From positions 1 through 64,000 of the IMG/VR virus record IMGVR_UViG_3300029841_000009: a stretch of DNA of 64,000 nt; one strand, 5' to 3'. A program made the translations under genes and the position numbers. Below the pieces are notes generated by a model, which saw only the letters and a program-made list of their open reading frames with translations, made no database searches and was not told where the DNA came from. This document shows positions 18,192-36,948 of the stretch, in pieces (the first letter of the stretch is position 1; each line of letters starts with the position of its first letter). Source of the DNA: a virus. Taxonomy: Duplodnaviria > Heunggongvirae > Uroviricota > Caudoviricetes.

Positions 18192-18569
18192 TCATTCACC
18201 ATCCTGCTCCGGCGGTTCTGGCAGCGGCATCCAGTGGGTTACCTCCTTGAGATACAGGTCTTCGCCACCACCGTCATCCCAAGTGGGCTTGCCATCATTA
18301 AACCAGTCGCCATATACGCCGACCTGAGTGTTGGGGATGCTTGGTGGGTAGTTGTTTTTAAAGTCAGCAGCTAACACATAGCATTGTCGCTCTCCCATTT
18401 CTGGCATTCGTTCACTACAGCTTATCCAACTCTCCGGAGTTACCGGAGAGTTGCCAGCCTCATACGCCACACGCATCCAGTGCATAAGCGTTTCAGTGCT
18501 CACACAGCCGCAATCAACATCAATTTTGCCGTGCTGCTGTTCCAGCCATTGCTCAAGCGTAGTGCTCAT
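18192..18569 (-). CDS. DUF551-like phage protein
   Basis: 125 aa; C-terminal VTHWMPLPEPP motif recalled as characteristic of DUF551. Confidence 0.45.
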   Translation of the reverse strand: MSTTLEQWLEQQHGKIDVDCGCVSTETLMHWMRVAYEAGNSPVTPESWISCSERMPEMGERQCYVLAADFKNNYPPSIPNTQVGVYGDWFNDGKPTWDDGGGEDLYLKEVTHWMPLPEPPEQDGE

Positions 18570-22756: not shown

Positions 22757-22870
22757 CAGATTTCTCCGGTTTAACCAGGGCGGGTATCGCTCGGTTTCGG
22801 GTATAACCTTAGGAAATTTTTTCCCACCTGTAAAGCACTTTTTATATAAATCTATAATTATATATTTATA
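22757..22870 (-). repeat. promoter-leader repeat, copy A (TTTACA-17-TATGGT with shared 5' leader)
   Basis: About 110 bp nearly identical to 32755-32870 and 63334-63449; lies immediately 5' of the 21689..22756 start. Confidence 0.7.
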
Positions 22871-25289: not shown

Positions 25290-25415
25290 GTTAAAACCAC
25301 GATATGTGGTATTAAAACCACATATCGTGAGTTTTTCAATGGGCAAAACAAAAAATAACCTTCTATTTGTGGTCCACCTCTCGTCTTACCATGTGAAAAC
25401 CACTAAATGTGGTAA
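25290..25415. promoter_or_regulatory. divergent operator/promoter region (OR/OL-like) with ACCAC-N5-GTGGT operators
   Basis: ACCACGATATGTGGT (perfect palindrome), ACCACATATCGTGAG and ACCACTAAATGTGGT between the Cro-like and CI genes. Confidence 0.6.
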
Positions 25416-32274: not shown

Positions 32275-32376
32275 CCCAATGTAAGTTATCGGCTTGCCCC
32301 ACAATAAGTTATCTATCTTCAAACGCCCCTATATTAACACTCGCAAAGTGTCAAAATGACACTTTGCGCATTGTGT

Positions 32377-32757: not shown

Positions 32758-32870
32758 CGGGTTATCTCCGGTTTAACCAGGGCGGGTATCGCTCGGTTTC
32801 GGGTATAACCATAGGAAATTTTTTCCCACCTGTAAAGCACTTTTATATAAATCTATAATTATATAATTCT
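32755..32870 (-). repeat. promoter-leader repeat, copy B
   Basis: Nearly identical to 63334-63449 and about 95 percent to 22757-22870; contains TTTACA-17nt-TATGGT and a GGAGA ribosome-binding site. Confidence 0.7.
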
Positions 32871-34397: not shown

Positions 34398-34779
34398 TTA
34401 TTATATCTACGATGATAGGAAATCTTTTCCTATGTGGCAATAGAAATTTACTACATTGCGTATAAGACAAGTTTTCTATGTCTAATAGGAAATGATGTTT
34501 CTTACATTTTATCGCGTTCTGATGGCTACTGTGTGCGTATTTATCGACGTTTATTGATAAGGCTCGCCCCTTCCTCCTGCAAAGCCCGGCCGTAGGCCTT
34601 ATTTCGGCCTTATATAAATTGATTTTGTATAGTTCGAAACGTGCCGTTTCGAAAAGGATGATCAGGCTGCTCCATGCCTCCGGCAAGTGCCGGAGGAGGT
34701 ATATTTGAGCGTAGCGACTCGAACCGGCGCGAGCTTTAGCTCGCTGCAAGGGCGAACATATTCACAGGCAAAGCCTGTG

Positions 34780-35028
34780 TAAGTTAAATAAAGAAAGTCT
34801 TAATAAAAGAAAGTGATTTTGCATTTATTTGTTTAGTGCATCTATTATAAAAAACCATTTGCATATACATATCAGAACTGTGGATAACTTTATTAGCCGA
34901 TGCCTGTAAAGGCGATATTTTTGCTGTGTTCAGGTTTAGAGAAAATTAATTTAGATTGTTTTTTGAACAGATATTTTATTGCGACGTAGATAATCCTCCG
35001 GTAAAACCGGATTCATCATTCAGGTGGG
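34780..35028. other. putative plasmid origin (oriR-like): AT-rich region with a DnaA box downstream of repA
   Basis: TGTGGATAA (DnaA box) at about 34879-34887 roughly 150 bp downstream of the repA stop; AT-rich, ORF-free, several palindromes. Confidence 0.45.
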
Positions 35029-35877
35029 TTAATGTTGGAGTGATTTCCAGGTCTTTCTTAACCTGTTATAACGCTGCTCAACGAGGGATCGTAAATATGC
35101 AAGGTCAGCACCAGGATACATGCCATCAGCAAATTCCTGACTAACCTCTCTGGTGATTTGATGACGAAGTTCGGCCTCTCCCTTTTCCCGAACAAGACGC
35201 GCAGCTCTCTCCGCTGCTTTCTGTTTTGCCTTTATCTCTCTGGCCGTCTTCCTCTGACGCCATACATTCTCCATCTGCTCCTGAATAACAATACGCTTAT
35301 AATCAGCCTCCGTTATCGCTTTTTTAAGCCGTTCGCTATTCTTCGCATTGAAGTAATTAAGTTTCTGGCTAACCGCACGTCTCCATGCTTGTTCAGTAAT
35401 ACCAACGGTTTCCAGCAGTTGATCACGAATCTCTATTTTCGCTGGCCAATACTGTTTATTCACCCGATCCCAGCGACGTTCATAATCAATAAAACCTAAC
35501 GCTTTCAGTTGCGACAACGCCCTTGTACAGCGCGTTATAGACTTGTTCCCAGCTTCGGATACGGTAGACAGGCCGCAAAAATCAGCCAACGCCTCAGCAC
35601 TAGCCAGAACCCGCTTAGAAATGATGTTTACATGGTGCAAAATCGCAGCGATCACAGCATTAATCGCCCGACGACGATGCTCGTTTATCCGGCGCTTCCG
35701 CTCTGACGGTTGATTAACGTAGAACGCAACCTCACACGTAAGATCACGCCCATTAATGCGCTGTAAAGCATCAGATAACACCAGCGGCAGCTTGTGCGTA
35801 TGGTGCTTTGGAGGCTGGAACTCCGGCGACAAATTACAAACGTAAGCTGAACGTAGAGACGGCATTGGTCTATCCAT
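35029..35877 (-). CDS. repA: IncFII-type replication initiator RepA (RepA1-like)
   Basis: 282 aa from the internal Met (MDRPMPSLR); SITRCTRALSQLKALGFIDYE and an Arg/Lys-rich C-terminus closely match R100/R1 RepA1 as recalled from memory. Confidence 0.75.
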   Translation of the reverse strand: MDRPMPSLRSAYVCNLSPEFQPPKHHTHKLPLVLSDALQRINGRDLTCEVAFYVNQPSERKRRINEHRRRAINAVIAAILHHVNIISKRVLASAEALADFCGLSTVSEAGNKSITRCTRALSQLKALGFIDYERRWDRVNKQYWPAKIEIRDQLLETVGITEQAWRRAVSQKLNYFNAKNSERLKKAITEADYKRIVIQEQMENVWRQRKTAREIKAKQKAAERAARLVREKGEAELRHQITREVSQEFADGMYPGADLAYLRSLVEQRYNRLRKTWKSLQH

Positions 35878-35964
35878 ATGTTCGCTCTTGCGTCCACGGA
35901 AAACCAACGTATAATGGGAGTTGTCGAGGCGCCCATGGATTGTTGTTGTTGGTTTTCCGTGGAT

Positions 35965-36005
35965 GTCGCAAGAAGCCCGCAGATTTATCTGCGGGCTTTT
36001 TGTTT
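35965..36005 (+). terminator. rho-independent terminator on the strand antisense to the repA leader (CopA-like antisense RNA 3' end)
   Basis: AAGCCCGCAGA-TTTA-TCTGCGGGCTT followed by TTTTGTTT about 100 nt upstream of the repA start, on the opposite strand. Confidence 0.45.
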
Positions 36006-36372
36006 CCATATCTGGTCACTTTCCAACCAGACACCCACAATCATAACCACGTTACGTGGTTTTAAGAGAACTCTACCACAACACTTTCGGTCATGCACGA
36101 AGTCTCTCACTGATCGAACGATAATCCACCAGTAAAAGGATCTAAATTGGATCTCGTTTTGCGAGCATCATACTACTGGCCTAACTCCAGTCAATGATTC
36201 CCAGCCAGAAACCTGCGGTAAACTCATCGTTCAGCAATATGCTGTCCGGCTTCAAAGATAAGGTGACATCATCCCTTAACAGCGCGGCCAGCTCCGTTAA
36301 AGGGTTGTTTTGACTTAATGCAAAACCGCTAATAAACATATTGGCGGTTTTGTTCCTTAAATCATCTTGCCT

Positions 36373-36948
36373 TTACACTAATTCTGGCCATTCGATATCA
36401 GGGGCATTTTCCGGCTGAACGCGATTCAGTAGCACACGGTATTTTTTCCAGTGTGTCAGGCTTAACTTTTCTTCCTCGGTAGCCATATCTAAATCGACAG
36501 CATCCTGCAGAGTGGCAATAATTTCACCTGCATATGCAATCAGCTCTTTCTTCTGAGAGTCAGCCGCTCTGACAAGCGCATCACGCTCTGCATTCTCATC
36601 ATTCACCCACGCATTGCCGTTCCATTTCTGATAATCCCCCTCCGGGGAAATGGCTGTCACGTCTGGAGGTAATACGCCAAGTTCAGAAATATAAATGGCT
36701 GCTCCCGTTTTCGTTTCATAGACGGTCTTTCCGCGATGGTCTTCCATCAGTTCCCATTTCATTTCATCTGCATTGAAAACGGCTGCATAACCCGCCGGAA
36801 TATCAGGCGGTGCAATATCTGTACTGTTTGCAGGCAGGCCAGTATACGGTGGGATATATGCGTCACTTTCGCCAATAAATTCATTGGTTCCATCAAGTAA
36901 ATTGAAAACGCGGATAGTTTGTGCTTCTGCACTCATTCTGAAAGCCAT
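36373..36948 (-). CDS. tfa: tail fiber assembly protein (lambda Tfa-like chaperone)
   Basis: 191 aa; MAFRMS...NEFIGE...[22 protein letters not shown]...[11 protein letters not shown]...APDIEWP matches lambda Tfa nearly residue for residue in conserved blocks. Confidence 0.85.

What the first reader, a model, noticed from the sequence alone, without database searches (positions are those of the whole stretch)
35878..36372. IncFII-like copy-control leader: antisense terminator hairpin opposite the repA leader
About 100 nt upstream of the repA start, on the opposite strand, a perfect hairpin (AAGCCCGCAGA-TTTA-TCTGCGGGCTT) plus T-run forms a terminator. This is the geometry of CopA antisense RNA in R1/R100 replicons. 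The in-frame 44-codon extension upstream of the probable repA Met could correspond to a tap-like leader peptide.
Basis: partly seen in the sequence, partly recalled or inferred. Interest (0 to 1): 0.45.

Follow-up and report, generated by a model that had tools for sequence, protein, structure and literature searches.

The report
Antisense-RNA copy-control switch upstream of repA
The hairpin is real and most likely ends a small antisense RNA that controls the replication gene of a 48-kb E. coli phage-plasmid, but the RNA is not CopA, there is no tap-like leader peptide, and the leader seems to work as a three-way RNA switch closer in logic to IncB/IncI plasmids.

Summary
A perfect 11-bp hairpin with a T-run lies at 35973-36005 (+), 96 nt upstream of the repA ATG at 35877. 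Shuffled sequence almost never gives such a hairpin, and it is conserved with a compensated base pair.

It closes a predicted ~83-nt plus-strand RNA (about 35921-36005). This RNA has an invariant promoter (TTGCGT-16-TATAAT) and a 5' stem-loop with a hypervariable loop. Its helices are 100% paired on the plus strand but only 83% on the mirror strand, which argues that the plus-strand RNA is the selected fold.

The CopA/tap interpretation fails. Rfam CopA gives no hit at E<=10, while the R100 control scores 106 bits. RepA is only 40% identical to R100 RepA1 over 97 aa. The 44-codon extension is not conserved: its ATG is absent in relatives and loop indels break the frame.

Instead, the antisense target is also complementary to a 22-nt segment just 5' of the repA ribosome-binding site, and three of those pairs show compensatory changes. 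When the target is blocked in silico, that segment pairs with the start region.

This is a new variant of a known kind of control. No RNA or function has been tested experimentally.

The parts
35973..36005 (+). Rho-independent terminator of the predicted antisense RNA: stem 35973-35983 / loop TTTA 35984-35987 / stem 35988-35998, then a T-run to 36005
   Evidence: Sequence. One of 4 perfect hairpins in the window against 0.03 expected. Invariant in 15 leader variants except one pair, A-U to G-C, compensated in 5 variants. The U-run is present only on the + strand in both leader types.
35888..35915 (+). Predicted antisense promoter: -35 TTGCGT 35888-35893, 16-nt spacer, -10 TATAAT 35910-35915
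   Evidence: Both hexamers are invariant in all 16 type-1 leaders, and the spacer has no indels. Type-2 relatives keep TATAAT, with TTGCAT and an 18-nt spacer. It is below the scan's -35 threshold at 3 of 6 matches. No transcript data.
35921..36005 (+). Predicted antisense RNA, about 83 nt (5' end inferred within +/-3 nt). It has a conserved 5' tail, then SL-I (outer stem 35928-35931/35964-35967, inner stem 35933-35939/35956-35962, loop 35940-35955), then the terminator
   Evidence: MFE -41.1 kcal/mol, z -6.2. The RNAalifold consensus gives the same two hairpins. Cells paired: 100% on the + strand against 82.6% for the mirror helices on the - strand.
35940..35955 (+). Hypervariable recognition loop, UUGUUGUUGUUGGUUU (the target loop on the sense strand is AAACCAACAACAACAA)
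   Evidence: There are 15-16 different loop alleles among otherwise near-identical leaders, including CAA-repeat number changes and replacements.
35948..35972 (-). 5' arm of the repA leader, CUUGCG-ACA-UCCACGGAAAACCAAC. It is the antisense target and also the partner of the 3' arm
   Evidence: The MFE of the 311-nt leader contains this 22-bp long-range helix. The exact 16-nt inverted repeat has only these 2 matches in the window.
35887..35908 (-). 3' arm, GUUGGUUUUCCGUGGA-CGCAAG. Its first 16 nt are identical to part of the antisense RNA loop and stem. It pairs either with the 5' arm or with the start region
   Evidence: Long-range helix: 95.7-97.1% of cells paired against 28-43% when slid. 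Pairs with double compensatory changes: GC/AU/CG, AU/GC and AU/UA. The helix is also present, with an unrelated sequence, in type-2 leaders.
35863..35909 (-). Predicted sequestering hairpin. CGUUGGUUUUCCGUG (35909-35895) pairs with UAUGGA-U-AGACCAAUG (35878-35863), covering both candidate start codons and the GGA Shine-Dalgarno-like bases
   Evidence: Constraint folds with the antisense-complementary part blocked give -16 to -22 kcal/mol in 13 type-1 variants and -20 to -29 in type 2. Against shuffled start regions, p is 0.003-0.07 per lineage, and there is no cognate specificity. Inferred, not shown.
35029..35865 (-). repA (IncFII_repA family). The probable start is ATG 35865 (MPSLRS...), or ATG 35877, which is in frame only in this lineage and in L046
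   Evidence: Pfam PF02387, E 1.3e-43. Relatives are annotated at 277 aa, starting 2-3 codons before the conserved LRS motif.
35878..36009 (-). The 44-codon in-frame extension (the 326-aa annotation). Non-coding leader, not a tap-like ORF
   Evidence: The ATG at 36009 is not conserved, and the frame is broken by loop indels in L010, L021, L003, L004 and others.
36167..36194 (-). Predicted repA promoter, TTGACT-16-TATGAT
   Evidence: 10 of 12 consensus matches. TTGACT is invariant and the -10 is TATGAT or TATCAT in nine leaders from six lineages. Similarity to relatives ends just upstream.
34775..34924 (.). Probable origin: an AT-rich stretch (GC 0.29) containing a consensus DnaA box, TTATCCACA, at 34879-34887 (- strand), about 140 nt downstream of the repA stop
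   Evidence: The layout matches R1/R100 oriR as I recall it. Not tested further.

Best explanation
This is the copy-number control region of an IncFII_repA-family replicon carried by a ~47-49-kb phage-plasmid of Escherichia, Salmonella and Klebsiella; a 99%-identical replicon is also in Yersinia pestis-infecting phage genomes.

Anatomy. The RNA has a 5' stem-loop with a 13-19-nt variable loop, followed by the terminator.

Target. The RNA is complementary to a stretch of the repA leader, 35922-36004, that stops 44-56 nt before the start codon. It therefore cannot mask the ribosome-binding site directly.

Switch. The targeted segment (the 5' arm) is also complementary to a 22-nt segment (the 3' arm) that lies immediately 5' of the start region.
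- Without antisense RNA, the two arms pair and the start region stays single-stranded, so RepA is made.
- With antisense RNA bound to the nascent 5' arm, the 3' arm is left free. It folds back onto the start region, covering the GGA bases and both ATGs, so RepA translation is blocked.

The variable loop would set which replicons inhibit one another, that is, incompatibility.

What is shown in silico: the hairpins, the conserved promoter, the strand asymmetry, the long-range helix with covariation, and the lack of a leader ORF.

What is inferred: that the RNA is made, the direction of regulation, the sequestering hairpin, and the co-transcriptional timing.
For: 1. RepA belongs to the IncFII_repA family. 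The leader is found only on plasmids, in 71 of 5426 complete E. coli genomes with 0 chromosomal places, and in 47-49-kb phage-plasmid records that carry tail genes.
2. The + strand RNA folds at -41.1 kcal/mol, z -6.2. The RNAalifold consensus is identical.
3. Strand asymmetry: 100% of cells are paired on the + strand against 82.6% for the mirror helices, and 69% for SL-I alone. The cause is invariant G.U pairs, which would be A.C on the other strand.
4. Both promoter hexamers and the terminator are invariant. The terminator pair A-U to G-C is compensated in 5 variants.
5. Variation is concentrated in the loop, with at least 15 alleles.
6. Long-range helix: it is part of the MFE of the leader, is 95.7-97.1% paired against 28-43% when slid, and has three pairs with double changes. 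L046 keeps a perfect 16 bp with three compensations in one sequence.
7. The same three-part architecture, with completely different arm sequences, occurs in leaders whose RepA is ~60% identical. These were found with my covariance model at E 5e-9.
8. With the target blocked, all 16 tested variants fold the 3' arm onto the start region.
9. No + strand gene lies upstream of the hairpin that would need this terminator.
Against: - There is no transcript evidence. The -35 hexamer matches the consensus at only 3 of 6 positions and failed the scan's filter.
- The sequestering hairpin has only modest statistical support (p 0.003-0.07 per lineage). Swapping arms between lineages shows no cognate preference.
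- The sequence set has few independent lineages, about 6 of type 1 and 3 distinct type-2 leader sequences. Shuffle controls therefore overstate significance.
- The true start codon is uncertain. The Shine-Dalgarno-like AAGAG before ATG 35877 would be half-paired in the proposed ON state.
- In several lineages a conserved ATG just upstream is out of frame with repA, and its role is unexplained.
- Covarying inverted-repeat half-sites could also reflect a dimeric DNA-binding protein.
Confidence: 0.65

Rival explanations
1. A CopA/CopT-tap system as in R1/R100. The antisense RNA blocks translation of a leader peptide whose translation is needed, by coupling, for repA translation.
For: The RepA family and the position of the antisense gene are similar. 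In R100, CopA lies 85-175 nt upstream of the repA ATG; here the predicted RNA lies 44-139 nt upstream. In relatives L034 and L035 a 14-codon TTG ORF ends with ATGA on the repA start. Type-2 relatives do have a leader ORF ending with ATGA.
Against: No CopA model hit, with the positive control working. No ORF is conserved in start, frame or stop across type-1 leaders. The extension has no stop of its own, its ATG is missing in relatives, and indels shift its frame. The TTG ORF has no Shine-Dalgarno sequence and is in frame with repA in other lineages.
Confidence: 0.08
2. An IncB/IncI-type activator. The long-range pairing itself stimulates ribosome binding at a weak repA ribosome-binding site, as the pseudoknot does in ColIb-P9 and pMU720. 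The antisense RNA inhibits simply by preventing that contact, and no sequestering hairpin is needed.
For: The topology is the same: the target loop pairs with a segment just 5' of the ribosome-binding site. The Shine-Dalgarno-like bases before the conserved ATG are weak. A sister replicon, L006 (RepA 63% identical), carries a true IncB-type leader, scoring 49.3 bits on Rfam PK-repBA against a threshold of 45. The published mechanism is summarised in PMC8053102.
Against: The helix is 16+6 bp and consumes the 5' strand of the target stem, so it is an alternative helix rather than a pseudoknot. There is no leader peptide to open a structure III. There is no PK-repBA or PK-repZ hit in the window. 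The 3' arm's complementarity to the start region is kept in every lineage although that region has diverged.
Confidence: 0.17
3. The hairpin is only a terminator or insulator between the tail-fibre module and repA, and the 16-bp inverted repeat is a DNA-level protein-binding site. There is no regulatory antisense RNA.
For: No transcript data. Half-sites of a dimer-binding operator would also covary. The hairpin is a perfect palindrome, so it forms on both strands.
Against: The U-run exists only on the + strand in both leader types; on the sense strand the stem is followed by CUUCUUGCG or CUCUGCGG. No + strand gene ends there. G.U pairs give a 100% against 83% strand asymmetry. The arms are 39 nt apart, and in type 2 they contain internal loops and bulges of varying size, which is atypical for an operator. 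A conserved TATAAT sits at the right distance from the hairpin.
Confidence: 0.07
4. Countertranscript-driven transcriptional attenuation, as in pT181 or pIP501. Antisense binding makes the leader terminate before repA.
For: The logic of mutually exclusive helices is the same. The weak Rfam resemblances are to attenuators: Thr_leader at 31 bits and Trp_leader.
Against: The hairpin formed by the freed 3' arm is followed by GCCGUCUCUACGUU with no U-run, and it contains the start codons themselves. The Rfam hits are on the + strand, below threshold, and reflect the terminator.
Confidence: 0.03

Closest known systems
CopA/CopT-tap-repA control of IncFII plasmids R1/R100 (Rfam RF00042)
   Same: The initiator belongs to the same Pfam family. 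A small antisense RNA gene with its own promoter and terminator sits inside the repA leader. There is a probable origin with a DnaA box downstream of repA. Control is expected to be post-transcriptional.
   Different: The RNA has no sequence or structure homology to CopA. The recognition loop is in the 5' hairpin, and the terminator is a separate perfect hairpin. There is no UUGGCG-type loop in the target, no tap ORF and no copB. RepA is only 40% identical to R100 RepA1, over 97 aa. The target is also complementary to a segment next to the ribosome-binding site.
Pseudoknot-dependent control of IncB (pMU720 repBA), IncI-alpha (ColIb-P9 repYZ) and IncL/M plasmids (Rfam RF01089, RF01087)
   Same: The antisense RNA and a cis segment just 5' of the rep ribosome-binding site compete for the same target loop. 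That cis segment can alternatively sit in a structure with the ribosome-binding site. A sister replicon (L006) is a real member of this family.
   Different: The contact is a 22-bp alternative helix that unzips the target stem, not a 4-8-bp pseudoknot. No leader peptide is needed or conserved. There is no covariance-model hit. The target loop is AAACCAAC..., not UUGGCG.
Countertranscript attenuators of pT181, pIP501 and pAMbeta1
   Same: Antisense binding to the nascent leader decides between two mutually exclusive downstream helices.
   Different: The output here is predicted to be ribosome-binding-site and start-codon sequestration, not termination. The Rep family and the hosts are unrelated.

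Membership tests
IncFII CopA/tap/repA control (R1/R100) | Initiator of the IncFII_repA protein family | tested here: met
   Pfam PF02387, E 1.3e-43. However, BLASTP against R100 RepA1 gives only 40% identity over 97 aa.
IncFII CopA/tap/repA control (R1/R100) | Antisense RNA homologous to CopA (Rfam RF00042) | tested here: not met
   No hit at E<=10 in 2.5-kb and 351-nt searches. R100 CopA scores 106.3 bits in the same tool.
IncFII CopA/tap/repA control (R1/R100) | Short leader ORF (tap) between the target and repA, ending at the repA start | tested here: not met
   No ORF is conserved in start, frame or stop. The 44-codon extension is in frame without a stop, and its ATG and frame are not conserved.
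IncFII CopA/tap/repA control (R1/R100) | Small antisense RNA gene with its own promoter and terminator inside the repA leader | tested here: inconclusive
   Supported in silico by conserved TTGCGT-16-TATAAT, the terminator, the fold z-score of -6.2 and the strand asymmetry. No transcript data are available.
IncFII CopA/tap/repA control (R1/R100) | copB repressor gene upstream of the leader | tested here: not met
   Similarity to relatives ends just upstream of the -35. Upstream lie tail-fibre-assembly, invertase or transferase genes, depending on the relative.
IncB/IncI/IncL-M pseudoknot control (Rfam PK-repBA, PK-repZ) | Match to the PK-repBA or PK-repZ covariance models | tested here: not met
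   No hit at E<=10 in the window. The sister locus L006 scores 49.3 bits against a threshold of 45.
IncB/IncI/IncL-M pseudoknot control (Rfam PK-repBA, PK-repZ) | Target-loop bases pair with a segment immediately 5' of the rep ribosome-binding site | tested here: met
   The helix between 35948-35972 and 35887-35908 is 95.7-97.1% paired and has three pairs with double compensatory changes. It is an extended helix, not a pseudoknot.
IncB/IncI/IncL-M pseudoknot control (Rfam PK-repBA, PK-repZ) | Leader peptide (repB/repY) whose translation opens the structure holding the ribosome-binding site | tested here: not met
   No conserved leader ORF in type-1 leaders. Type-2 relatives have a coupled leader ORF, but it lies downstream of the switch.
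Countertranscript transcriptional attenuation (pT181/pIP501) | Antisense-induced terminator (hairpin plus U-run) upstream of rep | tested here: not met
   The induced hairpin has no U-run after it and contains the start codons.

The most novel reading that the evidence does not exclude
This is a leader-peptide-free translational switch in IncFII-family replicons of phage-plasmids. A cis segment that copies the antisense RNA's loop and stem acts as an anti-sequestor for the repA start site, and the antisense RNA works by out-competing that copy on the nascent leader. The recognition loop evolves fast, partly by UUG/CAA repeat slippage. That would generate many mutually compatible replicon types within one phage-plasmid family. 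The same architecture persists in a second leader type in which the arm sequences have been completely replaced.
Probability: 0.5. Interest if true: 0.55.

Novelty: new variant of a known kind. Interest (0 to 1): 0.4.

Why it matters
Antisense-RNA control of IncFII and I-complex plasmids is a textbook model, so the general principle is not new. Three points would interest plasmid and phage-plasmid researchers:

1. This replicon, present in about 1.3% of complete E. coli genomes, appears to have no description in the papers I could search.
2. It seems to dispense with the leader peptide that all the classical relatives need. It replaces the short pseudoknot with a long alternative helix, and so offers a simpler, testable version of the same competition.
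3. The hypervariable loop offers a sequence-based way to predict incompatibility among these phage-plasmids.

It also corrects a widespread annotation. The 326-aa RepA in the E. coli records is probably about 48 codons too long.

Tried and rejected
- Rfam at permissive thresholds gave only sub-threshold, terminator-driven hits: Thr_leader, CsrC, Trp_leader and others.
- The first genome-contig scan, with the RepA protein, found nothing. The exact-hairpin scan found two unrelated MAG hits that share only the 26-mer.
- Aligning the leaders of the 60%-identical RepA homologues directly was uninformative. Their relationship appeared only with a covariance model.
- I tested whether 3'-arm/start-region pairing is lineage-specific. 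It is not, so I treat the sequestering hairpin as inferred.
- I looked for a second copy or a trans target of the 16-nt arm in the window. There is none beyond the inverted repeat itself.
- I checked whether the antisense RNA could be translated from GAGG-N5-AUG at 35935. The AUG is lost in L037 and L039 and no stop codon precedes the terminator, so I rejected this.
- Literature searches on phage-plasmids, pSLy3, vB_YpM phages and accession numbers found nothing on this replicon. pSLy3 turned out to belong to the ~100-kb SSU5 supergroup and is not this element. One possibly relevant 2026 preprint on phage-plasmid heteroresistance could not be opened.
- R100 coordinates 21.5-24.5 kb were searched by mistake before the real rep region was located.

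Full report
**Context**

The ORF at 35029-36009 (-) is an IncFII_repA family protein (Pfam PF02387, E 1.3e-43). The 1.5 kb around it is 97-100% identical to 47-52-kb non-mobilizable plasmids of E. coli, E. albertii, E. fergusonii and Klebsiella. It is also 99% identical to three 49-kb Yersinia myophage genomes.

Tail-fibre and tail-fibre-assembly genes lie directly upstream, and a RelE/ParE toxin-antitoxin pair lies downstream. The element is therefore a phage-plasmid.

The leader occurs in 71 of 5426 complete E. coli genomes, always on a plasmid. About 140 nt downstream of repA there is an AT-rich stretch with a consensus DnaA box at 34879-34887. This matches the IncFII-type origin layout as I recall it.

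**The observation**

- The hairpin is exactly as described, at 35973-35998 (+), with a T-run to 36005.
- Perfect hairpins of this size are expected 0.03 times in shuffled sequence. The window has four.
- No + strand gene lies upstream of it.
- On the sense strand the stem is followed by CUUCUUGCG, not a U-run. It can therefore only terminate a transcript that starts inside or antisense to the repA leader.

**The antisense RNA**

- Promoter: 58 nt upstream of the hairpin, on the + strand, there is TTGCGT (35888-35893), a 16-nt spacer, and TATAAT (35910-35915).
- Predicted product: transcription from about 35921 would give an ~83-nt RNA. It folds into a 5' stem-loop (SL-I) and the terminator at -41.1 kcal/mol, z = -6.2.
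- Sequence set: I collected 15, later 16, distinct versions of this leader from plasmids, viral contigs, metagenomes and assemblies.
- Conservation: both promoter hexamers, the spacer length, the terminator and the 5' tail are invariant. Nearly all variation falls in the SL-I loop, as changes in CAA/UUG repeat number, small insertions, or complete replacement.
- Consensus fold: RNAalifold predicts the same two hairpins.
- Pairing: on the + strand 100% of cells are paired, with compensated pairs in SL-I (G-C/A-U/G.U) and in the terminator (A-U to G-C in five sequences).
- Strand asymmetry: the mirror-image helices on the sense strand are only 82.6% paired, and SL-I alone 69%. Several invariant G.U pairs become A.C on that strand. 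This asymmetry is hard to explain unless the + strand RNA is the selected molecule.

**Not CopA, and no tap**

- Rfam finds no CopA, PK-repBA or PK-repZ match at E<=10 in either a 2.5-kb or a 351-nt search. The same tool finds R100 CopA at 106 bits.
- RepA aligns with R100 RepA1 only over 97 residues, at 40% identity.
- The 44-codon extension begins at an ATG (36009) that is ATC or ACC in the relatives.
- Loop indels of +2, -1, -2 and -7 nt shift the extension's frame.
- An exhaustive ORF listing shows no leader ORF with a conserved start, frame or stop.
- The conserved start is the ATG two to three codons before the LRS motif, which is 35865 here. The ATG at 35877 is in frame only in this lineage and in L046.
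- The 326-aa annotation is therefore probably too long.

**The leader as a switch**

The antisense RNA is complementary to 35922-36004. That stretch ends 44-56 nt before the start codons, so the RNA cannot mask the ribosome-binding site itself.

*The long-range helix.* The targeted segment is CUUGCG-ACA-UCCACGGAAAACCAAC (35972-35948). It is also complementary to GUUGGUUUUCCGUGGA-CGCAAG (35908-35887), which lies just 5' of the start region.

- This 22-bp helix is part of the minimum-energy fold of the leader (-118 kcal/mol, z = -7.4).
- Across the variants it is 95.7-97.1% paired, against 28-43% when the partners are slid.
- Three pairs show changes on both sides: G-C/A-U/C-G, A-U/G-C and A-U/U-A.
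- L046 has a RepA only 62% identical, yet keeps a perfect 16 bp with three compensations.

*The blocked state.* When the antisense-complementary part is blocked in a constrained fold, the freed 3' arm pairs with UAUGGA-U-AGACCAAUG (35878-35863). This buries both candidate ATGs at -19.7 kcal/mol.

- The equivalent hairpin forms in all 13 type-1 variants tested (12, plus L046), although the start region differs strongly between lineages.
- Its support is only moderate. Against shuffled start regions p is 0.003-0.07 per lineage, and there is no lineage-specific matching.

**A second leader type**

A covariance model built from the antisense alignment also hits leaders of ~60%-identical RepA genes from Citrobacter and metagenomes, at E 5e-9.

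These keep the following features:
- the terminator;
- a 14-nt block, GCCUCGACAACUCC;
- the TATAAT box;
- a long-range helix;
- a start-site hairpin of -20 to -29 kcal/mol.

The arm sequences, however, are entirely different: UUGUCAGCC..GCCACAC pairs with GUGUGGC..GGCUGACAA. In that type the switch precedes a conserved leader ORF of variable length (42 codons in L043, 162 in L005/L007). In L005, L007 and L043 it ends with ATGA on the repA start; in L042 no such overlap is seen.

Another sister, L006 (RepA 63% identical), instead carries a genuine IncB-type leader. It scores 49.3 bits on Rfam PK-repBA against a threshold of 45, and has a UUGGCGG loop, a distal CCGCCA, and a 15-codon coupled ORF. 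The RepA clade therefore uses several interchangeable control modules.

**Mechanism proposed**

- Without antisense RNA, the two arms pair and the start region is free, so RepA is made.
- With antisense RNA bound to the nascent target before the 3' arm is transcribed, the 3' arm sequesters the start site, so RepA is not made.

This follows the competition logic described for IncI1 and IncB/O plasmids, where the antisense RNA prevents a pseudoknot needed for initiation (PMC8053102). Here it works with a long alternative helix and without a leader peptide.

What is shown in silico: the structures, the conservation, the covariation and the strand asymmetry.

What is inferred: expression of the RNA, the sign of regulation, the sequestering step and the timing.

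**Rivals**

1. A pure activator role for the long helix, with no sequestering hairpin.
2. A tap-like coupling mechanism.
3. A terminator plus a DNA operator, with no antisense RNA.
4. Transcriptional attenuation.

None fits the data as well as the switch. The first is not excluded.

**Novelty and literature**

Searches for this replicon, its accessions and its phage relatives found no description of its control region. One 2026 preprint could not be opened.

I rate this a new variant of a known kind. Interest is moderate.

Noticed in passing
L006:1363-1500 (Logan SRR15533060 contig; RepA P0009, 63% identical to the window's RepA): This sister replicon has a classical IncB-type leader. It scores 49.3 bits on Rfam PK-repBA (threshold 45) and 34 bits on the CopA-like model. 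The loop is UUGGCGG, the distal segment is CCGCCA, and a 15-codon leader ORF ends with GTGA on the repA start. Closely related RepA genes therefore carry non-homologous control modules.
   Followed up: partly
L005:871-1016, L007:871-1016, L042:1177-1330, L043:187-340: These are 'type-2' leaders. They have the same terminator / TATAAT / long-range helix / start-site hairpin architecture, but unrelated arm sequences. They control a conserved leader ORF (MENHTPKLRPG..., 42 codons in L043, 162 in L005/L007) that ends with ATGA on the repA start in L005, L007 and L043, but not in L042.
   Followed up: partly
window 35919-35932 (sense GCCUCGACAACUCC; 5' end of the predicted antisense RNA, GGAGUUGUCGAGGC): This 14-nt block is unchanged between the window and the type-2 leaders (two type-1 variants, L034 and L046, differ at one base) even though the arms around it differ completely. 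It contains Shine-Dalgarno-like and anti-Shine-Dalgarno-like motifs. Its role is unexplained; a protein site, duplex nucleation or a promoter-proximal element are possibilities.
   Followed up: no
window 36138-36153 (- strand): There are two GATC (Dam) sites, arranged as GATCC-N6-GATCC, just downstream of the predicted repA transcription start. Both GATC sites are present in most related leaders; the first is conserved in all nine aligned and the second is lost in L046 (GAGCTC).
   Followed up: no
window 36045-36061 (- strand): The palindrome AACCACG-N3-CGTGGTT in the early leader is conserved in the window lineage and L046, and imperfectly (one arm altered) in the other lineages. It could be an RNA hairpin or an operator.
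   Followed up: no
window 35878-36009 and records such as NZ_CP032259 (WP_224158527.1): The E. coli records annotate RepA as 326 aa from ATG 36009, while Salmonella relatives are annotated as 277 aa. Comparative data favour the short form, so the long annotation is probably about 48 codons too long.
   Followed up: yes
window 36181-36339 and 36222/36321: Similarity to two groups of relatives stops at 36222 or 36321. Upstream, the relatives carry either a hin-type DNA invertase or a transferase gene, where the window has a 52-codon remnant ORF and a tail-fibre-assembly gene. The replicon thus abuts a variable, invertible tail-fibre region.
   Followed up: partly
window 36407-36605 (-): There is a sub-threshold Rfam IS009 match (52 bits, threshold 117) inside the tail-fibre-assembly gene.
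   Followed up: no
window 32342-32368, 25298-25329, 18427-18453: These are the three other perfect palindromic hairpins (stems of 11-13 bp) in the window, where shuffles give almost none. They are possible operators or terminators elsewhere in the phage-plasmid.
   Followed up: no
window, whole: The window is 64 kb, while the related plasmids are 47-52 kb. It is not a wrapped circle: only repeats of about 110 bp or less were found (starting at 32832/63411, and a ~46-bp one at 22762/32764). This copy is therefore larger, or sits in a longer contig.
   Followed up: partly
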